A stretch of DNA of 64,000 nt from the IMG/VR virus record IMGVR_UViG_3300023109_001645. One strand, given 5' to 3'. Origin of the DNA: an uncultured virus (IMG/VR IMGVR_UViG_3300023109_001645) (Duplodnaviria > Heunggongvirae > Uroviricota > Caudoviricetes). Made by a program: the position numbers and the translations under genes. The notes beneath the pieces were generated by a model. That model saw nothing but the letters and a program-made list of their open reading frames with translations, was not told the DNA's origin and did no database searches. Shown piece by piece: positions 35,912-52,294 of the stretch; within the stretch, counting starts at the first letter, position 1, and every line of letters begins with the position of its first letter.

Positions 35912-36316
35912 TTAGTCAGCTTCGAAATCGTCTGCGCCAGTGAAGTCATCAGCTGTACCAGCTTCTTCCATTTCAACTTTAGCATCGTCTGCTGCGTTAT
36001 CAAAAGTCCAAGCAATACTTGCGCCTGTGTCAAGTGTTACTTTACGTCCTGCAATTTTAGTAACTTGACGAGCTGTGCCGCCGTCGTCTTTTACAGTAAT
36101 AGTCATATCAGCCACAGCTAATGTACCCTGTGCTTTATCAGCTAGGGTGCAATCTTCTGTGTTTGTGCCGTCTGTGCAACGGAACTTTTTAGATCCTAAT
36201 TGCTTAACGATCCAGCCGTTTGCTTCTGCTTGTCCTGTAGCACGAAAACGTACTTTAATTTCGTTGCCGTTTGCTGTTGGCTCTCCGAAATTTCTTTTAT
36301 TTAGTGGTCTTCCCAT
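35912..36316 (-). CDS. Hypothetical protein, probably an abundant virion protein
   Basis: 134 aa (MGRPLNKRNFG...). Has its own late promoter, a structured leader, a strong AGGAG RBS and a terminator. Confidence 0.65.
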   Translation of the reverse strand: MGRPLNKRNFGEPTANGNEIKVRFRATGQAEANGWIVKQLGSKKFRCTDGTNTEDCTLADKAQGTLAVADMTITVKDDGGTARQVTKIAGRKVTLDTGASIAWTFDNAADDAKVEMEEAGTADDFTGADDFEAD

Positions 36317-36419
36317 TTTTTTTCTCCTATAAAAAGTAGTCCTATGCCCGTTCTATGAGCTACGCTGTGGGTACAGCATAAGTCCGCCTTGCGGCACACT
36401 ATTTGACATTAGTATTTAT
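36317..36419 (-). promoter_or_regulatory. Late promoter plus structured 5' leader
   Basis: ATAAATA at 36419-36413, GCC-GCAA-GGC hairpin (36386-36395) and TATGCTGT/ACAGCGTA hairpin (36361-36380). Confidence 0.55.
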
Positions 36420-47600: not shown

Positions 47601-47793
47601 GGAAGAAGTCAAAAACTACGAAAACCAACAAAAAGAAATAAAATCTGACATAATGAAACTGTGCTGGTACATGCGCGGTGGCATGACGCTTGAAGAAGGT
47701 TTTAGTATAAGTTTTGAAGATAGACAACTTATCAATGATATTGTTAAAGACAATTTAGAAACAACAAAGAAAACCCAACTACCGTTCTTTTAA
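47587..47793 (+). CDS. gp51-like small protein, probably expressed as the C-terminus of a frameshift fusion
   Basis: WYMRGG.T.EE....S.EDR motif. In the -1 frame relative to 46688. Its GTG sits inside the hairpin loop. Confidence 0.65.
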   Translation: MAEILEEVKNYENQQKEIKSDIMKLCWYMRGGMTLEEGFSISFEDRQLINDIVKDNLETTKKTQLPFF

Positions 47794-48302
47794 GTTGTTG
47801 GGTTTTTTCTTGCATTAGAATTAATATTTTTTTCAAGTTGAGCAAGTAGTCGCCTTTTCTCTTTCATATTAAGTTTGTCAAAGTTAGCCTTTGTTTGAGC
47901 ATACACCGTCTTTAAAACTTTAGGATCAGTAGCAGGTTTCGGTGTGCCTTTGCCAACAGGTGCGGAAGCACCGCCCGCAATATTTTTGCCTGACATTTTA
48001 TCTTTAACCAATGTAGTAAAAATAGTCTGCATTCTTTTGGCATCCATTGGCTGAGTTGTGTCAATTTTTTTAGTATCTACATTTTTAGATTGTAAAAACT
48101 TAATAACATCATCTGTAGTAGCAGTCTTAAACTTTTTTCCTTGACTTCCCAATATACCGGCAAACTCAGTTTCCATGTCCTTAACTGTTTGTTTTACATC
48201 AGCAGCACCTGCTTTTTCAGCTCGACGAATAGCCCTAGCTTGTTTGGTAATAGGTATAAATTCATCAAGTTGTGATTCAGTCAGAATATCATTCAATTTC
48301 AT
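47790..48302 (-). CDS. Basic hypothetical protein, possible internal head protein
   Basis: N-terminus MKLNDILTESQLDE, Lys-rich body, ATAAATA at 48334-48328. Confidence 0.6.
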   Translation of the reverse strand: MKLNDILTESQLDEFIPITKQARAIRRAEKAGAADVKQTVKDMETEFAGILGSQGKKFKTATTDDVIKFLQSKNVDTKKIDTTQPMDAKRMQTIFTTLVKDKMSGKNIAGGASAPVGKGTPKPATDPKVLKTVYAQTKANFDKLNMKEKRRLLAQLEKNINSNARKNPTT

Positions 48303-48339
48303 TACAAAGATCCTTAGTTGTTATATGTATTTATTAGTT

Positions 48340-48826
48340 TTGAATAGTTACTTCGTAACTATTAGTTTTCGCTAACGCTCAAACTACAATACTTCGTTTT
48401 GATTAAATGATTTATATATACAACATTCATTATCACGTAAGTGATAATGTTTAAGTTTCATGTAGATTGTTTCAGTCAGACGGAACCTTTTACGGTTCCA
48501 TCTAATCTCAAAATGCGCTTCATGTGAGTCTGCACCAGCCGAGACTTGGAAGTAGGTAATTGTTTATACACAAAGTACAATGGGCTCTGACCTTTCCCAA
48601 CCTACGTCGACATCGCTGTTTCCAGCTACCTCTCGCTTCGTTCCTATTGCTAAAGAGTTTTTATGTACTGTGTTTGTGTTTTTCGACTGCCAACATGCAA
48701 TCTATATCAACTAGTGAGCCCAATTTGTTTGGTGGCTTCCACACTCTGGTGTGTCAATCAATATGTACGTGTGCTTCTATACGAGAGCTTTTTCCACAGC
48801 GGTATTTCTAATCCGGCCCGCTAACC
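48340..48826 (-). ncRNA. Candidate large structured non-coding RNA/DNA element
   Basis: About 490 nt with no credible ORF and many hairpins. GCTG-GAAA-CAGC and a G-U-containing stem favour the minus strand. Long-range pairing TGGGCTC/GAGCCCA. Confidence 0.5.
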
Positions 48827-49276
48827 TTATGTGTTGGAATGTTTTGCCTGTATGTGATGTTCTAGCAATGCCTGTTTGAGCTTGTCTGATCCGCCTACTC
48901 TAACATTAATGATACCATTATAGTAGTCATCTGTTTCAAGTACTCGCCTATCAAACTGCTCTCGTGCCTCTATGTAGGACATTTCGCCCCTACCTTTACA
49001 TAGGTATAATATTTCTCTTGTAAACTTGTCTTCGCCTAGTTGTGCAACATCTGCGTTTAGTCTATCACTGGATCCCCAGTAAGTACGCCAATCGCTTTCT
49101 TTAGTGCCGCGTCTTTTGTTTTTCTTGCCTTTGAGTGGTGGCTTAGTAGTTTTAAATTTTGCTAGTTTCTTGCCTATGTATTTTTGGCCTGTAGTGGTAT
49201 TGGTAATAAGATAAACAAAGCCTTCATACTCTTCTGGTATTTCTTCAATTGTTTTACCTTCGTAAGTCCACTGCAT
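48827..49276 (-). CDS. Small stand-alone GIY-YIG family nuclease
   Basis: GFVYLITN....KYIGKK, ESDWRTYWGSS, FTREIL, a conserved E and YYNG.I. There is no C-terminal DNA-binding extension. Confidence 0.7.
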   Translation of the reverse strand: MQWTYEGKTIEEIPEEYEGFVYLITNTTTGQKYIGKKLAKFKTTKPPLKGKKNKRRGTKESDWRTYWGSSDRLNADVAQLGEDKFTREILYLCKGRGEMSYIEAREQFDRRVLETDDYYNGIINVRVGGSDKLKQALLEHHIQAKHSNT

Positions 49277-49309
49277 GAGTATACTTACCGGTGCCTAAAG
49301 TGTTTATGC

Positions 49310-49510
49310 CTAAGTTCTGGTTTCTCTTGTTGTGTTGTGATGAATATGTATTTCGTCTGCACGTTCTTTTGCTAATGATCGAATATCTCGTAAACATTTT
49401 CTTACTGCACGGTGTGTTCGTACACTGTTTCTTTGTTCAAATTTTTCATTTGCTTTAAAATAATCAAGATATGCTTTTACTAGCAAATCGTGTGCGTCAT
49501 CTTCTGTCAT
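49310..49510 (-). CDS. Small hypothetical protein
   Basis: 66 aa, translationally coupled to gp46 by an ATGA overlap. Confidence 0.6.
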   Translation of the reverse strand: MTEDDAHDLLVKAYLDYFKANEKFEQRNSVRTHRAVRKCLRDIRSLAKERADEIHIHHNTTRETRT

Positions 49511-51276
49511 TCTACAACCTCTAAGTCATTTGCATAACTTGTAAATCCATTTTCTTTTACAACACGCAATACATGATTAACTCTTCCAACTAGTTCGTCT
49601 TTGTGTGAAATAAGATATATATTCTTTTGTCGCTCACGTGCCATCTTCTTAAGAACACTTAGACTATTTTCAACGCCAGCTGTGTCCATTCCGCTATCAA
49701 TAAGCTCGTCGATGAACAATAAATTAATATTTTGATATAAACTTTCCCAAACATCTCTAAATGCAAAGCTCAACCCGAGTATAAGTCTGTTGCGCTCACC
49801 TCTGCTCAAGTTATCAAAGTCTAAATCTTGTCCTAGTTGTGTAATTTCAACATTCAAATCGTTTTGGAATTTAACTTGATGTGGTAAGCCTAGTTTGTCA
49901 AGATAGTATGTGAGTCTGTTGTTTAAATATGCTAAGTTTTGATCAATAATCTTTTTGCGAATAAAACTATCTTTGTTTGTAAGAAGTTTTAATAAAAACT
50001 CTTGATGCTCTTTGTAACTTGTAAGTTCGTTTACTATACTCCAGTCAATTTGTTGTATAGCACTTTCACTTAGTTCTACAATTTGTGCATCATACGGATC
50101 AGTTTCAACTTTTTTATCTTCAAGTGCCTTTTTCAAATTGTCTACGTTGTTTCTATGATCGTATGCTTCTTTGGCAGTGTCGTAGAATGTAGTAGGCTTG
50201 CCATTGATATCGCCTATTTCAGCAAGTGCTTCAGCAACTCCTGTAACTTTTTCTGCTATCTCTGATTGATATGATAAAGCATCATCGAGTTCTTTATCTT
50301 TGCGTTCTGCAATTTCTATTTTTTTATCTGCATGTAGATCTTGTCCGCATGTATAACACTTGGCATCAACTAATTCTTCAATATCTTTCTTTGCTTTTTC
50401 TACACTCTTGTCAGCACGTTGTAGTGCAGGTTCTAGTGTGCTTAATTCTTTTTTAAGAGCTAAAATAGCATTGTTGTGCTCAGTCCAGTTAGATAGTTTT
50501 TCATGTGCTTCGAGTTCATCTTCAATGTTTAAATGTTCTAATTCGTCGATTGCACTAACAAGCTTGTCTTGATCCTGTTTGTTTTTAGCAATCCATGCAC
50601 GTTGTGTACGCTTTAGACCATTAATACTGCTTTCAATCTTTTCATTTGCAGTTTGAATAGCATTAATTTTAAGAGTTTCTTCGGTAATAGCATCTTTGCT
50701 CTGGCGAGTTTGATCTTTAAGTGCGTCTGCCTTTTCAGATAGTATGGTAATACCTAACAATTGCTCGATGATCTGTCTTTGATCATTAACTCGCATACTC
50801 AAGAACGGTTCTGTGTAAGTGTTTAGTGCAACAATGTGTTTGAACATGTCATGACTCATACCTAACAGTGTGTTTACATCGTCTTGCGTCTGTCTACTGT
50901 CACCTTGCGACTCATCTACCAATGCTTCTTGGTTGTTGATGTAGAATTTAAAGAAATTAGGCCCACGTCCCCGCTCGATACGGTATTGATTGTTATCTTT
51001 TTCAAATTGCAGTGTAACCAACATGCCTTTGCTATTGGTTTTGTTGATTAAATTGTTGGCTCTAATATTAGTAAGGGCTTTTCCGTACATTGCATAGCTA
51101 AGTGCATTAATAATAGTTGTTTTGCCAGTACCGTTACGTGATCCACTATCATCACCACCTTGATCCAAGTTTTCACCTAGCACCAGTGTTAGTTGTTCAC
51201 CTTCGAAGTCTACTGCTTGAGTCTGATTGCCTACACTCATAAAGTTTTTTACGGTAAGATCTTTAATCTTTATCAT
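49507..51276 (-). CDS. gp46: Recombination endonuclease subunit, T4 gp46 / SbcC-Rad50 ATPase
   Basis: NGTGKTT Walker A, CYTCGQ zinc hook, LSRGE signature, LLFIDELID Walker B and ISH. Confidence 0.93.
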   Translation of the reverse strand: MIKIKDLTVKNFMSVGNQTQAVDFEGEQLTLVLGENLDQGGDDSGSRNGTGKTTIINALSYAMYGKALTNIRANNLINKTNSKGMLVTLQFEKDNNQYRIERGRGPNFFKFYINNQEALVDESQGDSRQTQDDVNTLLGMSHDMFKHIVALNTYTEPFLSMRVNDQRQIIEQLLGITILSEKADALKDQTRQSKDAITEETLKINAIQTANEKIESSINGLKRTQRAWIAKNKQDQDKLVSAIDELEHLNIEDELEAHEKLSNWTEHNNAILALKKELSTLEPALQRADKSVEKAKKDIEELVDAKCYTCGQDLHADKKIEIAERKDKELDDALSYQSEIAEKVTGVAEALAEIGDINGKPTTFYDTAKEAYDHRNNVDNLKKALEDKKVETDPYDAQIVELSESAIQQIDWSIVNELTSYKEHQEFLLKLLTNKDSFIRKKIIDQNLAYLNNRLTYYLDKLGLPHQVKFQNDLNVEITQLGQDLDFDNLSRGERNRLILGLSFAFRDVWESLYQNINLLFIDELIDSGMDTAGVENSLSVLKKMARERQKNIYLISHKDELVGRVNHVLRVVKENGFTSYANDLEVVE

Positions 51277-51277
51277 A

Positions 51278-52294
51278 TTATGATTCTAGTCCATTATATA
51301 TTTGCAGCAACATACTTTTATCGTAGTTGTTTGTGTCTAGTTGTGATATTTCATTACTTACAATTTGATCTACACTTTCAAATTGTGCAATATCGAGCTC
51401 TGTACTCATTTCTTCTAACTGTTTTTGTGGTATTAGCGTAATTTCACGGCAGTTGTACTGGTTAATAAATGTTTCTTTGATAAAACTTGCTTCTTCATAA
51501 CTGATAGGCAAGTCCAATGTAACACGCAAGTACATTTTACTCTTAATAAAGGTATCTGCGTTGTCGATTAGATGACTGAGTGTCACAGTACGATACTTAG
51601 GACAGTTTGGCCAGTCAATAAACTCTGGTTCTTTGTTATTTTCTTTATCAAGTATCATCATACCACGTTCATCATCGCCTACATCAGCATAGTTGTGCGG
51701 AAATGCATTACCGATGTAGTGAATAGCACCTTGCTTCTGTCTTTTATGGAAGTGTCCACTAAAAACATAGTCTTGATGCTTGAAATGCTCGGGCTTTAGA
51801 TCACCGTGATCTGGCATTCTTACTAGTGCGTTCATATAAAAGCTAGGAAGTTCAAAGTGACCAAACAAATACTTTGTTTTAATATCGCTCATCTTCTTCC
51901 ACTCATCTCCTACAAGCCAAGGCACAAGTGCAACATCATCCTCAATAAGAATTTCGTCTACAAACGTAATACCTGGGATGTGTTTTGCAAATGCTGTACT
52001 GTTAACGTCACGTTTGTCTTTATAATACAAATCGTGATTACCGTCAAAGAAGTAAAACTTCTCAAATGCAGCACCTAGCTTTTCCATACAACGAATTGTT
52101 GCATCCATAGTGGTAAGATTAAGTGAATTACGATTATGATGCCAGTCTCCGCAGAAGATACCGGTCTCGCAACCGGCAGCTTGTGCTTGTTCTATGTACC
52201 AATCAATAAATTCCTCGCAATCTTCGTTGTGAACCCGACTATTGCCTTTTAAACCAAAATGAATGTCTGTAAAAACCGCAGCTTTCTTAAACAA
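51278..52294 (-). CDS. gp47: Recombination endonuclease subunit, T4 gp47 / Mre11-SbcD nuclease
   Basis: Metallophosphoesterase motifs TDIHFG, GDWHH, GNHD, GHFE and SGHFH. TTG start with a GGAGG RBS. Confidence 0.92.
   Translation of the reverse strand: MFKKAAVFTDIHFGLKGNSRVHNEDCEEFIDWYIEQAQAAGCETGIFCGDWHHNRNSLNLTTMDATIRCMEKLGAAFEKFYFFDGNHDLYYKDKRDVNSTAFAKHIPGITFVDEILIEDDVALVPWLVGDEWKKMSDIKTKYLFGHFELPSFYMNALVRMPDHGDLKPEHFKHQDYVFSGHFHKRQKQGAIHYIGNAFPHNYADVGDDERGMMILDKENNKEPEFIDWPNCPKYRTVTLSHLIDNADTFIKSKMYLRVTLDLPISYEEASFIKETFINQYNCREITLIPQKQLEEMSTELDIAQFESVDQIVSNEISQLDTNNYDKSMLLQIYNGLES

What the first reader, a model, noticed from the sequence alone, without database searches (positions are those of the whole stretch)
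48340..49290. Large structured non-coding element directly downstream of a minimal GIY-YIG nuclease: candidate nuclease-RNA system
Seen: this is by far the longest non-coding gap (about 520 nt) in a tightly packed window. It starts right at the stop of a 149-aa GIY-YIG protein that has a catalytic domain and a basic loop (KPPLKGKKNKRRG) but none of the C-terminal DNA-recognition modules of I-TevI/Seg homing endonucleases. On the minus (same-sense) strand it forms AGCGG...CCGCT, CACAC/GTGTG, GCTG-GAAA-CAGC (GNRA loop), GTAGGT...ACCTAC, AGATGGAACC/GGTTCCGTCT (U-G on minus, C-A on plus) and a long-range TGGGCTC/GAGCCCA helix. It also has internal direct repeats (GTACATA twice, ACATGAA twice). I do not recognise it as tRNA, tmRNA, RNase P or a group I/II intron. 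Inference: a co-transcribed large ncRNA that could partner with or guide the nuclease, or a replication/packaging-related element that the nuclease processes.
Basis: partly seen in the sequence, partly recalled or inferred. Interest (0 to 1): 0.8.

Follow-up and report, generated by a model that had tools for sequence, protein, structure and literature searches.

The report
Large structured RNA beside phage nuclease
The 524-base "empty" stretch after a small nuclease gene in an uncultured marine giant phage encodes an intricately folded RNA that matches no described family and carries two identical 7-letter motifs that always change together, which points to an unknown base-pairing role.

Summary
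The 524-nt gap (48303-48826) after a 149-aa GIY-YIG gene is a real RNA element of about 490 nt (48336-48837, minus strand). It is conserved in hundreds of marine viral contigs. My 14-helix model, including a pseudoknot, is strongly supported by covariation: 95% of cells paired, and 50 of 88 pairs show compensatory changes, against 0 of 500 shuffles reaching that. It matches no Rfam family and no isolated phage.

It is single-copy and universal in its clade of uncultured T4-like phages with genomes of roughly 360 kb. In 71 of 73 loci it lies directly 3' of the nuclease gene.

Linkage is not obligatory in either direction. The RNA occurs without the nuclease nearby in two other lineages. Relatives of the nuclease occur without the RNA in phage Melnitz and in the two cyanophage loci I opened.

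The oddest feature is a direct 7-nt repeat (ACAUGAA at 48519-48525 and 48457-48463). Its two copies are identical in 120 of 123 distinct sequences while changing through 10 variants. No complementary partner was found.

Best reading: a new large phage ncRNA, probably acting in trans by base pairing through these two elements. An RNA-assisted nuclease remains possible at about 0.2. Function is unproven.

The parts
48336..48837 (-). Whole structured RNA element. It is about 490-500 nt here and 440-608 nt in homologues. The 5' edge includes the last ~11 nt of the GIY-YIG ORF (AACACAUAAGG).
   Evidence: Block conservation is 0.62-0.98 from 48826 to 48347 and then collapses. AACACATAAGG stays with the RNA where the upstream gene differs, as in L093, L109 and L116. 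The 14-helix model has 95.2% of cells paired.
48827..49276 (-). 149-aa GIY-YIG nuclease gene. It has the catalytic domain, a basic beta-hairpin insert and a C-terminal helix, with no separate DNA-binding domain.
   Evidence: PF19835, E 5.6e-36. phrog_447. Motif residues are invariant in 53 sequences down to 49% identity. AF2 pLDDT 87.5. Best structural match is the I-TevI catalytic domain, Z 7.2.
48798..48822 (-). P1 hairpin (AGCG/CGCU stem)
   Evidence: 100% paired but nearly invariant (helix 1).
48773..48788 (-). P2 hairpin
   Evidence: 5 of 5 pairs show compensatory changes (helix 2).
48704..48764 (-). P3 long helix enclosing the P3a hairpin (48740-48753, CACAC-CAGA-GUGUG)
   Evidence: P3 is 99.3% paired with 4 of 8 pairs compensatory. 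P3a has 3 of 5 compensatory (helices 3 and 4).
48685..48702 (-). P4 hairpin
   Evidence: 98.5% paired, 3 of 5 pairs compensatory (helix 5).
48664..48669 (-). Pseudoknot helix, 5' strand (AGUACA)
   Evidence: Pairs with 48574-48579. 6 of 6 pairs are compensatory and 100% paired (helix 6).
48574..48579 (-). Pseudoknot helix, 3' strand (UGUACU), lying inside the P7 loop
   Evidence: As above (helix 6).
48630..48657 (-). P5 hairpin, whose loop carries the invariant AGGAACGAA (48637-48645)
   Evidence: 99.2% paired, 3 of 7 pairs compensatory (helix 7). The loop is invariant.
48613..48628 (-). P6 variable-length hairpin. It has a GAAA loop here, and GUAA, GAAA or 40-120-nt extensions elsewhere.
   Evidence: Alignment. 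Both basal pairs are compensatory (helix 8).
48549..48608 (-). P7 helix enclosing the local P7a hairpin (48581-48599, UGGG...CCCA) and the ultra-conserved GGGAAAGGUCAGAGCCCAU
   Evidence: P7 is 100% paired in 123 sequences with 2 compensatory pairs. P7a is invariant in the main clade and covaries to AAGGA/UCCUU in L215.
48519..48525 (-). X1: first copy of the 7-nt element ACAUGAA, in a roughly 13-15-nt loop of a weakly supported hairpin
   Evidence: Identical to X2 in 120 of 123 distinct sequences across 10 matched variants.
48478..48503 (-). P9 10-bp hairpin between X1 and X2
   Evidence: 97.4% paired in 123 sequences, with many G-U single changes and one compensatory pair.
48457..48463 (-). 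X2: second copy of ACAUGAA, in the linker after the invariant GUCUGACUGAAACAAUCU
48428..48449 (-). P10 9-bp hairpin
   Evidence: 8 of 9 pairs compensatory (helix 12). Flagged as weakly terminator-like.
48363..48386 (-). P11 hairpin with tandem G-A/A-G and a GNRA-type loop
   Evidence: 5 of 8 pairs compensatory, including C-G to U-A next to the loop (helix 13).
48344..48362 (-). P12 terminal hairpin
   Evidence: 8 of 8 pairs compensatory (helix 14).
48327..48335 (-). T4-late-promoter-like box (AAUAAAUAC) that begins the variable downstream gene unit. It marks the 3' boundary and is not part of the RNA.
   Evidence: It is conserved in alignment columns after P12 and before unrelated downstream genes. 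All 7 ATAAATAC matches in the window are on the coding strand. That TATAAATA is the T4 late-promoter consensus is recalled.
47790..48302 (-). Downstream 170-aa ORF of unknown function. It is variable among relatives.
   Evidence: Only 10 viral contigs carry a relative. No Pfam or PHROG family. Downstream genes differ among loci.
49310..51276 (-). Upstream context: a 66-aa ORF (49310-49510) and a gp46/SbcC-Rad50-like gene (49507-51276)
   Evidence: AAA_23 and SMC_N domains. The best isolated-phage relatives are 50% identical.

Best explanation
The gap encodes a new family of large (440-610 nt), pseudoknotted, non-coding RNA belonging to an abundant clade of uncultured marine T4-like phages with genomes of roughly 360 kb.

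It is transcribed in the same sense as the gp47-gp46-GIY-YIG genes, probably as the 3' end of that transcript. It ends just before a late-promoter-like box that starts an unrelated, variable gene block.

It works as RNA, not as DNA or a hidden protein. It folds into at least 14 helices around ultra-conserved unpaired stretches.

Its most distinctive working parts are two identical 7-nt single-stranded elements, X1 in a hairpin loop and X2 in a linker. I infer that they base-pair with two copies of one complementary sequence on another nucleic acid, so the RNA acts in trans.

The neighbouring 149-aa GIY-YIG protein is a conserved small phage nuclease. It shares a recombination module with the RNA in this clade but is not its obligatory partner.

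Shown: the structure, the strand, the distribution, the two-way separability from the nuclease, and X1 = X2.
Inferred: co-transcription, trans action, and pairing through X1 and X2.
For: Structure.
- 88 pairs in 14 helices are 95.2% paired, against 85.0 +/- 0.3 in shuffles and 35-43% when slid.
- 50 pairs show double changes against 31.8 +/- 2.1, reached by 0 of 500 shuffles.
- The pseudoknot is compensatory in 6 of 6 pairs.
- RNAalifold independently gives 62 pairs, 28 of them compensatory.

Strand. Frequent G-U pairs would be C-A on the other strand.

Not coding. Indels are not multiples of three, and the antisense ORF is open in only 14 of 54 homologues.

Not a described family. Rfam gives nothing at gathering thresholds and only two chance-level hits at E <= 10. 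There are no tRNA or tmRNA genes. No isolated phage matches.

Distribution.
- The core motif occurs in at least 120 viral contig stretches.
- It is single-copy in five records of 120-236 kb, which CheckV rates 33-66% complete.
- It is present in 26 of 26 gp46-selected loci with at least 3300 nt downstream.

Separable from the nuclease.
- RNA without a nearby GIY-YIG gene: L132 and L215.
- GIY-YIG without the RNA: the complete Melnitz genome. The two cyanophage loci opened (syn9, S-CAM7) leave 47 and 23 nt to the next gene. Relatives are reported in 339 Synechococcus phage records, but I did not inspect those for the RNA.

X elements.
- X1 = X2 in 120 of 123 distinct sequences, and in 123 of 123 over the first 6 nt.
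- There are 10 matched variants. Fisher p is 7e-17 at position 5 and 3e-16 at position 7.
- For each varying X1 column with minor alleles in more than two sequences (positions 1, 3, 5 and 7), the top mutual-information partner is the matching X2 column.

Expression hint. Contigs from RNA libraries of four studies cover the ORF and the 5' domain and cross the ORF stop.
Against: - No transcript ends, abundance or processing could be seen. Only assembled contigs were available, and DNA carry-over cannot be excluded.
- No complementary partner for X was found inside the element, within +/-1.3-3.7 kb, or at other ACATGAA sites in the window.
- The trans-pairing step is therefore inference from the parallel change alone.
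- One variant, ACAUGAA, dominates (92 of 123). Most changes are transitions.
- In the main clade the linkage to the nuclease is nearly absolute. The nuclease-plus-RNA block is also more conserved at synonymous sites than gp46. That fits a functional pair as well as it fits a shared recombination module.
- The RNA-only lineages are known from fragments of 8 and 24 kb, so a GIY-YIG gene could lie elsewhere in those genomes.
Confidence: 0.5

Rival explanations
1. RNA-protein machine. The RNA binds the adjacent GIY-YIG nuclease, which has no DNA-binding domain, and supplies target recognition or regulation. X1 and X2 act as two short guides that pair with two identical sites, for example on the two strands of an inverted-repeat target.
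For: - The nuclease has only the catalytic domain plus a basic beta-hairpin.
- The gene pair is adjacent in 71 of 73 loci found through the RNA alone, with the protein ranging from 48% to 98% identity.
- In a 72nd contig the gene lies about 1.4 kb upstream of the RNA core.
- The pair is universal in gp46-selected loci, 26 of 26.
- The nuclease-plus-RNA block has sharp shared boundaries at about 49297 and 48340.
- The block has lower synonymous divergence than gp46.
- The protein is under purifying selection: median dN 0.061 against dS 0.48.
- Two exposed identical 7-mers look guide-like.
- Contigs from RNA libraries bridge the ORF and the RNA.
Against: - The RNA occurs without a nearby GIY-YIG gene in L132 and L215.
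- Nuclease relatives work without this RNA. Melnitz has none in its complete genome, and the two cyanophage loci opened have no room for it.
- The elements are only 7 nt and show low diversity.
- No target site was found in the window.
- The RNA's own gene would be a perfect target.
- My paper searches found no natural RNA-guided GIY-YIG enzyme (listings only).
Confidence: 0.2
2. Homing-endonuclease parking. The GIY-YIG protein is a free-standing Seg-like homing endonuclease that sits beside, and cuts near, a highly conserved RNA gene. The T4 segB gene in the tRNA cluster is the recalled analogue. Linkage and low divergence would then come from break-repair gene conversion, not from a shared function.
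For: - Pfam files the protein under SegE_GIY-YIG.
- The best structural match is the I-TevI catalytic domain.
- The block has lower synonymous divergence than gp46, and protein identities are incongruent with those of gp46.
- Insertions cluster at both ends of the nuclease gene.
- A relative lies beside nrdB in Melnitz, and relatives lie a few genes downstream of nrdB in syn9 and S-CAM7. That nrd genes are a classic homing-endonuclease neighbourhood is recalled.
Against: - There is no presence/absence polymorphism. 50 of 50 gp46-selected loci with at least 900 nt downstream have the gene, and 26 of 26 have gene plus RNA.
- There is one copy per record.
- The protein has no DNA-binding domain.
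- Catalytic motifs and length are conserved down to 49% identity under purifying selection.
- Relatives are found in 339 Synechococcus phage records, which suggests a conserved rather than sporadic gene there.
Confidence: 0.12
3. Cis-acting 3' untranslated element. The structure only stabilises, terminates or processes the early transcript and insulates it from the downstream late unit. This would be an enlarged version of the terminator/promoter composites (PeSLs) that border variable regions in T4-like phages.
For: - It lies at the 3' end of an operon and directly before a late-promoter-like box and a variable gene block.
- The last three hairpins (P10-P12) are simple stable stem-loops, and P10 is weakly terminator-like.
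- PeSLs are described as composite terminator/promoter motifs at points of gene exchange (abstract).
Against: - About 350 nt of pseudoknotted core with invariant unpaired stretches, and the X1 = X2 constraint, far exceed what termination or stabilisation needs.
- No hairpin is followed by a clear U-run apart from the weak P10 call.
- The element is kept in other genomic contexts, as in L132 and L215.
Confidence: 0.1
4. DNA-level element, such as a replication origin, packaging site or recombination site, with the repeats as protein-binding or crossover sites.
For: - Many metagenome contigs end inside the block: 29 of 80 within 620 nt after the nuclease stop, and 30 of 80 at 302-987 nt after gp46.
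- A direct repeat flanks an inverted repeat.
Against: - Compensatory changes with strand-specific G-U pairs indicate selection on RNA.
- Contig ends are spread over the whole conserved block. They are better explained by a sequence shared among co-occurring strains breaking assemblies, as rRNA genes do (inference).
Confidence: 0.03

Closest known systems
GOLLD and ROOL (large 'ornate' RNAs often found in phages and prophages)
   Same: It is a several-hundred-nucleotide, multi-helix RNA. It has pseudoknots, GNRA-type loops and invariant unpaired stretches. It is phage-borne and of unknown function. It was recognised only by comparative analysis.
   Different: It matches neither the Rfam models for these RNAs nor any other. 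No tRNA genes are nearby. It sits beside a nuclease gene. Nothing like the twin 7-mers was noted in what I read of those RNAs (listing and abstract only). Whether it forms oligomers as they do is untested.
OMEGA guide RNAs (IscB/HEARO, TnpB) and IS110 bridge RNAs
   Same: A structured RNA is encoded directly next to a small nuclease gene. It has short exposed segments that could pair with DNA. That bridge RNAs use two loops with short guides is recalled.
   Different: The enzyme is GIY-YIG, not RuvC/HNH or a DEDD recombinase. There is no transposon, and there is one copy per genome. There is no variable guide at an element boundary. The two candidate guides are identical to each other. RNA and protein each occur alone in other phages.
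T4 Seg-type free-standing GIY-YIG homing endonucleases (segB in the tRNA gene cluster; recalled)
   Same: A GIY-YIG nuclease gene lies beside a conserved structured-RNA gene in a T4-like phage. The region is mosaic and recombinogenic.
   Different: The protein has no C-terminal DNA-binding domain. It is universal, not sporadic, in the clade. It is under purifying selection.
Systems with matched direct repeats flanking a hairpin: T4 gene 60 translational bypass with mobA (recalled), and the DRT2 ncRNA whose template is copied by rolling-circle reverse transcription (abstract only; the flanking-repeat detail is recalled)
   Same: Two short identical sequences a few tens of nucleotides apart flank a stable hairpin. 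They are kept identical because the same pairing partner must fit both.
   Different: No ORF runs through X1. The X1-X2 spacing varies from 51 to 68 nt with no multiple-of-three rule, and a concatemer has no conserved open frame (89 of 123 closed). No reverse transcriptase gene was seen nearby.
PeSL terminator/promoter composites of T4-like phages (Comeau et al. 2014, PMC4122927; abstract read)
   Same: A stem-loop followed by a promoter lies at the border of a variable gene block where unrelated genes are swapped. This corresponds to the P12 hairpin plus the late-promoter-like box.
   Different: PeSLs are small and repeated within a genome. This element is about 490 nt, single-copy and pseudoknotted.
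Group I introns carrying GIY-YIG genes (such as I-TevI in the T4 td intron; recalled)
   Same: A GIY-YIG gene is joined to a structured RNA whose core has an a-b-a'-b' pseudoknot order with A-rich joiners.
   Different: It does not match the Rfam intron model even at E <= 10. There are no conserved flanking exons, since downstream genes differ among loci. No spliced joints appeared in RNA contigs.

Membership tests
Any Rfam 15 family (including GOLLD, ROOL, HEARO, group I/II introns, RNase P, tmRNA, 6S) | Score at or above the family's gathering threshold with its covariance model | tested here: not met
   The window scan finds only freshwater-2 at 36314-36398. A scan of 48200-49400 at E <= 10 gives two chance-level snoRNA hits at E 8.1 and 8.9.
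Group I intron | Interrupts a conserved gene, with conserved exons on both sides | tested here: not met
   Downstream sequence is unrelated among homologous loci and begins with its own promoter-like box.
Group I intron | P3/P7 pseudoknot core with a guanosine-binding site | tested here: inconclusive
   A covarying pseudoknot with a comparable strand order exists. Hairpin placement differs, and no G-binding site could be assigned.
tRNA / tmRNA | Cloverleaf or tRNA-like domain detectable by ARAGORN | tested here: not met
   0 genes in the 64 kb window.
OMEGA-type RNA-guided nuclease (IscB/TnpB with omega RNA) | Structured RNA encoded next to the nuclease gene | tested here: met
   71 of 73 loci.
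OMEGA-type RNA-guided nuclease (IscB/TnpB with omega RNA) | RuvC and/or HNH nuclease | tested here: not met
   The protein is GIY-YIG.
OMEGA-type RNA-guided nuclease (IscB/TnpB with omega RNA) | Guide of about 16-20 nt that differs between copies, at the edge of a multi-copy mobile element | tested here: not met
   The element is single-copy. The only guide-like parts are two internal 7-mers, with one variant in 92 of 123 sequences.
OMEGA-type RNA-guided nuclease (IscB/TnpB with omega RNA) | RNA-dependent, programmable cleavage | not testable with these tools
   Needs biochemistry.
Free-standing GIY-YIG homing endonuclease (Seg / I-TevI type) | GIY-YIG catalytic domain with conserved motif residues | tested here: met
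   PF19835, E 5.6e-36. FVY, Y.GKKL, R, E and N columns are invariant in 53 sequences. I-TevI catalytic domain Z 7.2, rmsd 2.6 over 79 residues.
Free-standing GIY-YIG homing endonuclease (Seg / I-TevI type) | Separate C-terminal DNA-binding module joined by a linker | tested here: not met
   All relatives are 140-152 aa. After residue 123 there is only one helix.
Free-standing GIY-YIG homing endonuclease (Seg / I-TevI type) | Sporadic presence among close relatives | tested here: not met
   50 of 50 and 26 of 26 gp46-selected loci carry it.
T4 endonuclease II (DenA)-like host-DNA nuclease | Small single-domain GIY-YIG enzyme similar to T4 EndoII | tested here: inconclusive
   No PDB sequence match at E <= 1. 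The fold match to 2WSH is Z 4.0, below that to I-TevI. The relative lies beside nrdB in Melnitz and a few genes downstream of nrdB in syn9 and S-CAM7. That denA adjoins nrdB in T4 is recalled.
PeSL terminator/promoter composite | Short stem-loop plus promoter motif repeated through variable regions of one genome | tested here: not met
   The element has no second copy in the window. Only its last hairpin plus promoter-like box resembles a PeSL.

The most novel reading that the evidence does not exclude
The RNA is the specificity subunit of a new kind of ribonucleoprotein. A minimal GIY-YIG nuclease with no DNA-binding domain would be aimed by a large scaffold RNA. The scaffold's two identical 7-nt elements would pair with two copies of a target sequence, for example on both strands of an inverted-repeat site, or with two 7-nt hairpin or anticodon-type loops. 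This would be the first natural RNA-directed GIY-YIG enzyme. It would be used by an abundant group of marine giant phages against host or rival-phage nucleic acid.
Probability: 0.12. Interest if true: 0.95.

Novelty: new variant of a known kind. Interest (0 to 1): 0.8.

Why it matters
Large, complex-folded bacterial and phage RNAs are rare, and several of the known classes are ribozymes or nucleoprotein machines.

This one has several unusual points:
- It appears universal and single-copy in an abundant but uncultured group of marine giant phages.
- It has a well-supported 14-helix pseudoknotted fold that could be modelled or imaged directly.
- It carries an evolutionary signature I have not seen described: two same-sense 7-mers that mutate in lockstep. 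That signature implies a specific, still unidentified pairing partner.

Finding that partner would give a testable function. If the neighbouring nuclease proves to depend on the RNA, that would add a new enzyme family to RNA-directed nucleases.

The element also breaks metagenome assemblies. This matters for reconstructing these phage genomes.

Tried and rejected
**Known RNA classes.**
- Rfam at gathering thresholds and at E <= 10, and ARAGORN: nothing.

**Hidden protein.**
- The 83-aa antisense ORF is open in only 14 of 54 homologues. Frames of the longest open stretch vary.

**Single-sequence folding.**
- z is -2.5 on the sense strand and -2.4 on the antisense strand. This is not decisive.

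**Proposed helices that failed.**
- My P8 stem around X1 (62% paired) and an outer extension of P9 (78% paired): not supported in the register tested.
- A GGCC/GGCU closing helix proposed by RNAalifold is invariant and so untested.

**Partner for X.**
- No contiguous complement of 6 or more nt sits at a consistent place in the element.
- No complementary covarying column was found.
- Nothing consistent lies within +/-1.3-3.7 kb.
- There is no TTCATGT...ACATGAA inverted pair in the window.
- The other seven ACATGAA sites lack the element's context.
- The site inside gp46 does not covary with X.
- ACATGAA occurs 9 times in the window against 17 +/- 4 expected. This is a weak depletion that I do not rely on.

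**Rolling-circle or "endless ORF" idea.**
- The unit is 51-68 nt with no multiple-of-three rule. 89 of 123 concatemers have stops in all frames.

**Self-pairing and start codons.**
- CAUG is palindromic, but the variants ACAUAAU and ACAGAAA are not, so X1-X2 self-pairing is rejected.
- Start-codon or anticodon-loop readings of X remain speculation.

**RNA-seq.**
- Only assembled contigs were available, so there are no transcript ends or levels.
- The 3' half (48303-48570) had almost no cover in the four runs laid. I draw nothing from that.

**Proteins.**
- The PDB sequence search found nothing at E <= 1.
- Foldseek gave no match at E <= 0.001.
- Proteins next to the RNA-only copies have no Pfam family, apart from a ClpP gene further downstream.

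**Unavailable resources.**
- The window's own assembly is not held.
- The nearest held record, a 42 kb fragment, lacks the locus.

**Literature.**
- Four full-text searches listed no paper whose title or abstract start describes this RNA or a natural RNA-guided GIY-YIG enzyme.
- The catalogue of about 8,500 viral candidate RNAs (PMC10690425; passages read) reports short motifs with a mean of 67 nt. Its supplements were not examined and could contain fragments of this element.
Full report
**What is at the coordinates**

All genes here are on the minus strand.

| Feature | Coordinates |
|---|---|
| gp47-like phosphoesterase | 51278-52294 |
| gp46/Rad50-like ATPase | 49507-51276 |
| 66-aa ORF | 49310-49510 |
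| 149-aa GIY-YIG protein | 48827-49276 |
| ORF-free gap (524 nt) | 48303-48826 |
| 170-aa ORF of unknown family | 47790-48302 |

- The GIY-YIG protein matches Pfam PF19835 over residues 3-123 (E 5.6e-36).
- A greedy ORF map shows no other gap above 256 nt once an 83-aa antisense ORF inside this gap is set aside.
- That ORF is open in only 14 of 54 homologues.

**It is conserved as nucleotide sequence**

- A search of IMG/VR with the nuclease protein returned at least 600 matching stretches, of which the best 80 were kept.
- In essentially every locus long enough, blastn similarity (72-90%) runs from the ORF through the gap to about 48340-48365 and then stops.
- I aligned 54 distinct sequences, namely the window plus those of 90 loci that had at least 560 nt downstream.
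- Majority identity per 20-nt block is 0.62-0.98 between 48826 and 48347. It falls to 0.28-0.60 beyond.
- Ultra-conserved blocks alternate with variable, indel-rich ones.

**It is an RNA structure**

- RNAalifold predicts 62 pairs, 28 with compensatory changes.
- I built a fuller model from the alignment and a mutual-information scan.
- The model has 88 pairs in 14 helices. One is a pseudoknot between 48664-48669 and 48574-48579.

Pair counts on the 54-sequence alignment:

| Measure | Observed | Control |
|---|---|---|
| Cells paired | 95.2% | 85.0 +/- 0.3% shuffled; 35-43% slid by 1-3 columns |
| Pairs with double changes | 50 | 31.8 +/- 2.1 (0 of 500 shuffles reach 50) |
| Double-change cells | 457 | 134 +/- 10 |
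| Pseudoknot pairs compensatory | 6 of 6, never broken | |

- On a second alignment of 123 distinct core sequences, P7 is 100% paired and P9 is 97.4% paired.
- Many pairs alternate with G-U, which would be C-A on the other strand. The RNA is therefore the same sense as the nuclease gene.
- One hairpin (P6) varies from a GAAA or GUAA tetraloop stem to extensions of 40-120 nt.
- Element length ranges from 440 to 608 nt.
The long-range TGGGCTC/GAGCCCA helix does not.

**It matches no described family**

- Rfam 15 gives nothing for the region at gathering thresholds and only two chance-level hits at E <= 10.
- ARAGORN finds no tRNA or tmRNA in the window.
- Sensitive blastn against 50,697 phage records hits only the nuclease ORF (Melnitz, 68%) and nothing in the RNA.
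- A scan of 185,579 prokaryote genomes with a 22-nt core motif found three contigs, all in MAGs and all with the nuclease gene upstream. These are probably phage contigs placed in bins.
- Four literature searches listed no paper whose title or abstract start describes it.
- The supplements of a viral candidate-RNA catalogue (PMC10690425) were not checked.

**Whose RNA it is**

- The best isolated-phage relatives of gp46 are only 50% identical. They are giant Pseudomonas and Sinorhizobium phages.
- Five viral records of 120-236 kb that carry the locus are rated 33-66% complete by CheckV. This implies genomes of roughly 360 kb.
- Each of these records has exactly one PF19835 gene and one match to my covariance model R1, and the two are adjacent.
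- The model hits the window once (184.5 bits, 48454-48612), plus a weak 18-bit echo of the P9 hairpin on the opposite strand.
- I took 80 loci chosen only by similarity to gp46. All 50 with at least 900 nt downstream have the nuclease gene. All 26 with at least 3300 nt downstream have both the nuclease gene and the RNA.
- The pair is therefore a fixed feature of this clade, not a sporadic insert.

**Linkage, and its limits**

Searching by the RNA core motif alone gave at least 120 stretches. Of the first 80 loci, 73 had enough upstream sequence, and 71 of those carry the nuclease gene directly upstream at 48-98% protein identity.

The two exceptions:
- L093's contig has the gene about 1.4 kb upstream of the RNA core, separated by inserted ORFs.
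- L132's 8-kb contig has none.

Further evidence that each can occur alone:
- A further divergent RNA copy (G007:C274, locus L215) lies after unrelated genes, with no GIY-YIG gene in the 6.5 kb examined and none found on its contig.
- The complete genome of Methylophilales phage Melnitz has a 70%-identical nuclease beside nrdB but no RNA.
- Relatives at 35-49% identity occur in 339 Synechococcus phage records.
- In the two such loci I opened (syn9 and S-CAM7), the gene lies a few genes downstream of nrdB. The next gene follows 47 or 23 nt after it.
- RNA and protein can therefore each exist alone.

**The nuclease**

- All 114 distinct relatives collected are 140-152 aa.
- The FVY, Y.GKKL, R, E and N motif columns are invariant in 53 sequences down to 49% identity.
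- The AlphaFold model (pLDDT 87.5) shows the GIY-YIG core, a basic beta-hairpin insert (residues ~40-60) and one C-terminal helix.

Structural matches from the wide search:

| Match | Z |
|---|---|
| I-TevI catalytic domain | 7.2 |
| PD-T4-3 | 5.6 |
| UvrC N-terminal domain | 4.6 |
| T4 endonuclease II | 4.0 |

- Foldseek alone gave nothing significant.
- PHROGs files the protein in phrog_447, labelled "NAD synthetase". The fold result suggests that label is an annotation error.
- Against the window's copy, median dN is 0.061 and dS is 0.48, so the protein is under purifying selection.

**The block evolves differently from its flank**

Three samples compare synonymous change in the nuclease gene with that in gp46.

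| Sample | Nuclease gene | gp46 |
|---|---|---|
| 85 nuclease-selected loci (biased; some contigs appear twice) | dS 0.48 | dS 1.61 |
| 47 RNA-motif-selected loci | pS 0.58 | pS 0.73 (C-terminal part of gp46) |
| gp46-selected loci, identical codons among identical residues | 0.65-0.80 | 0.47-0.66 |

- In the first sample the nuclease value is lower in 81 loci. In the second it is lower in 37 of 47.
- Protein identities are incongruent. For example, L119 has 91% for the gp46 C-terminal part against 69% for the nuclease, while L135 has 83% against 91%.
- The conserved block starts about 20 nt before the nuclease start and ends at the RNA's 3' end. Insertions of 0.4-1.7 kb sit between gp46 and the nuclease in some genomes.
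- This fits a module exchanged among genomes by recombination, or extra constraint at the nucleotide level. I cannot tell which.
- It probably explains a side observation. 29 of 80 contigs end within 620 nt after the nuclease stop, 11 of them at 136-147 nt, while none begins within 700 nt upstream.
- Likewise, 30 of 80 gp46-selected contigs end 302-987 nt after gp46.
- A stretch shared by many co-occurring strains breaks assemblies as rRNA genes do. This is inference.

**The twin 7-mers**

- ACAUGAA occurs at 48519-48525 (X1, in a loop after GACUC) and at 48457-48463 (X2, after the invariant GUCUGACUGAAACAAUCU).
- Among 123 distinct core sequences the two copies are identical over all 7 nt in 120, and over the first 6 nt in all 123.
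- Six of the seven positions vary. The ten matched variants are ACAUGAA, ACAUAAU, ACAUGAU, ACGUGAA, ACAUGAG, ACAUAAA, GCAUAAA, GCAUGAA, GUAUGAA and ACAGAAA.
- Fisher p is 7e-17 at position 5 and 3e-16 at position 7.
- These are same-sense, not complementary, changes, so they are not a helix.
- The simplest cause is a nucleic-acid partner that must fit both copies.

I could not find that partner:
- There is no consistent complement in the element or within +/-1.3-3.7 kb.
- There is no inverted pair in the window.
- Other ACATGAA sites show no shared context and do not change with X.
- A rolling-circle or bypass-type coding explanation fails. The spacing is 51-68 nt with no multiple-of-three rule, and 89 of 123 concatemers are closed in all frames.

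Position 6 is always A, and position 2 is always a pyrimidine. I note without weight that 7 nt is the size of a hairpin or anticodon loop.

**Expression**

- Only assembled contigs from public runs could be laid.
- In four marine metatranscriptome studies, contigs cover the nuclease ORF and the RNA's 5' domain. Several cross the ORF stop, for example 48636-48916, 48698-48887 and 48777-48913.
- This is compatible with co-transcription but cannot show ends, levels or the absence of DNA.
- A sigma-70-type scan finds no convincing promoter for the RNA and only a weak terminator-like call at P10.
- Directly after the last hairpin lies AAUAAAUAC, which resembles the T4 late promoter TATAAATA (consensus recalled).
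- All seven ATAAATAC matches in the window are on the coding strand.
- The hairpin-plus-promoter arrangement at the edge of a variable gene block recalls PeSL composites of T4-like phages (abstract).

**Verdict**

- The element is a new, well-supported family of large structured phage RNA.
- My estimates are below.

| Reading | Estimate |
|---|---|
| Autonomous, probably trans-acting RNA that uses the twin 7-mers for pairing | ~0.5 |
| RNA-assisted nuclease | ~0.2 |
| Homing-endonuclease neighbour | ~0.12 |
| Purely cis 3'-end element | ~0.1 |
| DNA-level element | ~0.03 |

Noticed in passing
window 36314-36398 (-): There is an Rfam freshwater-2 RNA motif here (68.4 bits, E 2.5e-08). An ATAAATAC late-promoter-like box lies just upstream at 36412-36419.
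   Followed up: no
loci L012-L091 and L219-L296, relative to window 48300-49300: Metagenome contigs end inside the nuclease-RNA block far more often than in its flanks. 29 of 80 end within 620 nt after the nuclease stop, and 30 of 80 end 302-987 nt after gp46. The likely cause is assembly breaking at a sequence shared among co-occurring strains.
   Followed up: partly
records G002-G006 (contigs of L171, L034, L067, L026, L069): CheckV completeness of 33-66% for contigs of 120-236 kb implies genomes of roughly 360 kb. The window therefore belongs to an uncultured marine giant T4-like phage. The best isolate relatives of gp46 are only 50% identical.
   Followed up: partly
L008, L010, L079, L085, L089 (homologous to window ~48830-48850); L093 contig: The junction between the nuclease 3' end and the RNA 5' end is an insertion hot spot. 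An insert of about 87-98 nt duplicates the ORF's last codons in five loci. In L093's contig, inserted ORFs put the nuclease gene about 1.4 kb upstream of the RNA core. In both cases AACACATAAGG stays with the RNA.
   Followed up: partly
L212-L214 (genome contigs): The only prokaryote-genome hits to the RNA core are MAG contigs of 73-335 kb, binned as Crocinitomicaceae and Candidatus Neomarinimicrobiota. They are probably phage contigs mis-binned, or possibly a host hint. One MAG holds two different copies of the RNA on different contigs.
   Followed up: partly
window 48827-49276 and phage records: This small GIY-YIG family (phrog_447) is widely annotated as 'NAD synthetase' in cyanophage and Felixounavirus records. 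The fold and motifs say nuclease, so the label looks like a propagated annotation error.
   Followed up: partly
window, whole: The 7-mer ACATGAA (both strands) occurs 9 times against 17.3 +/- 4.1 expected from shuffles. This is a mild depletion of the motif that the RNA carries twice.
   Followed up: no
L215 3320-3350: Directly after the divergent RNA copy lies a near-consensus sigma-70 promoter (TTGACA, 17 nt, TATACT). The window has a T4-late-type box at the equivalent place. The RNA thus ends at a promoter in both contexts.
   Followed up: no
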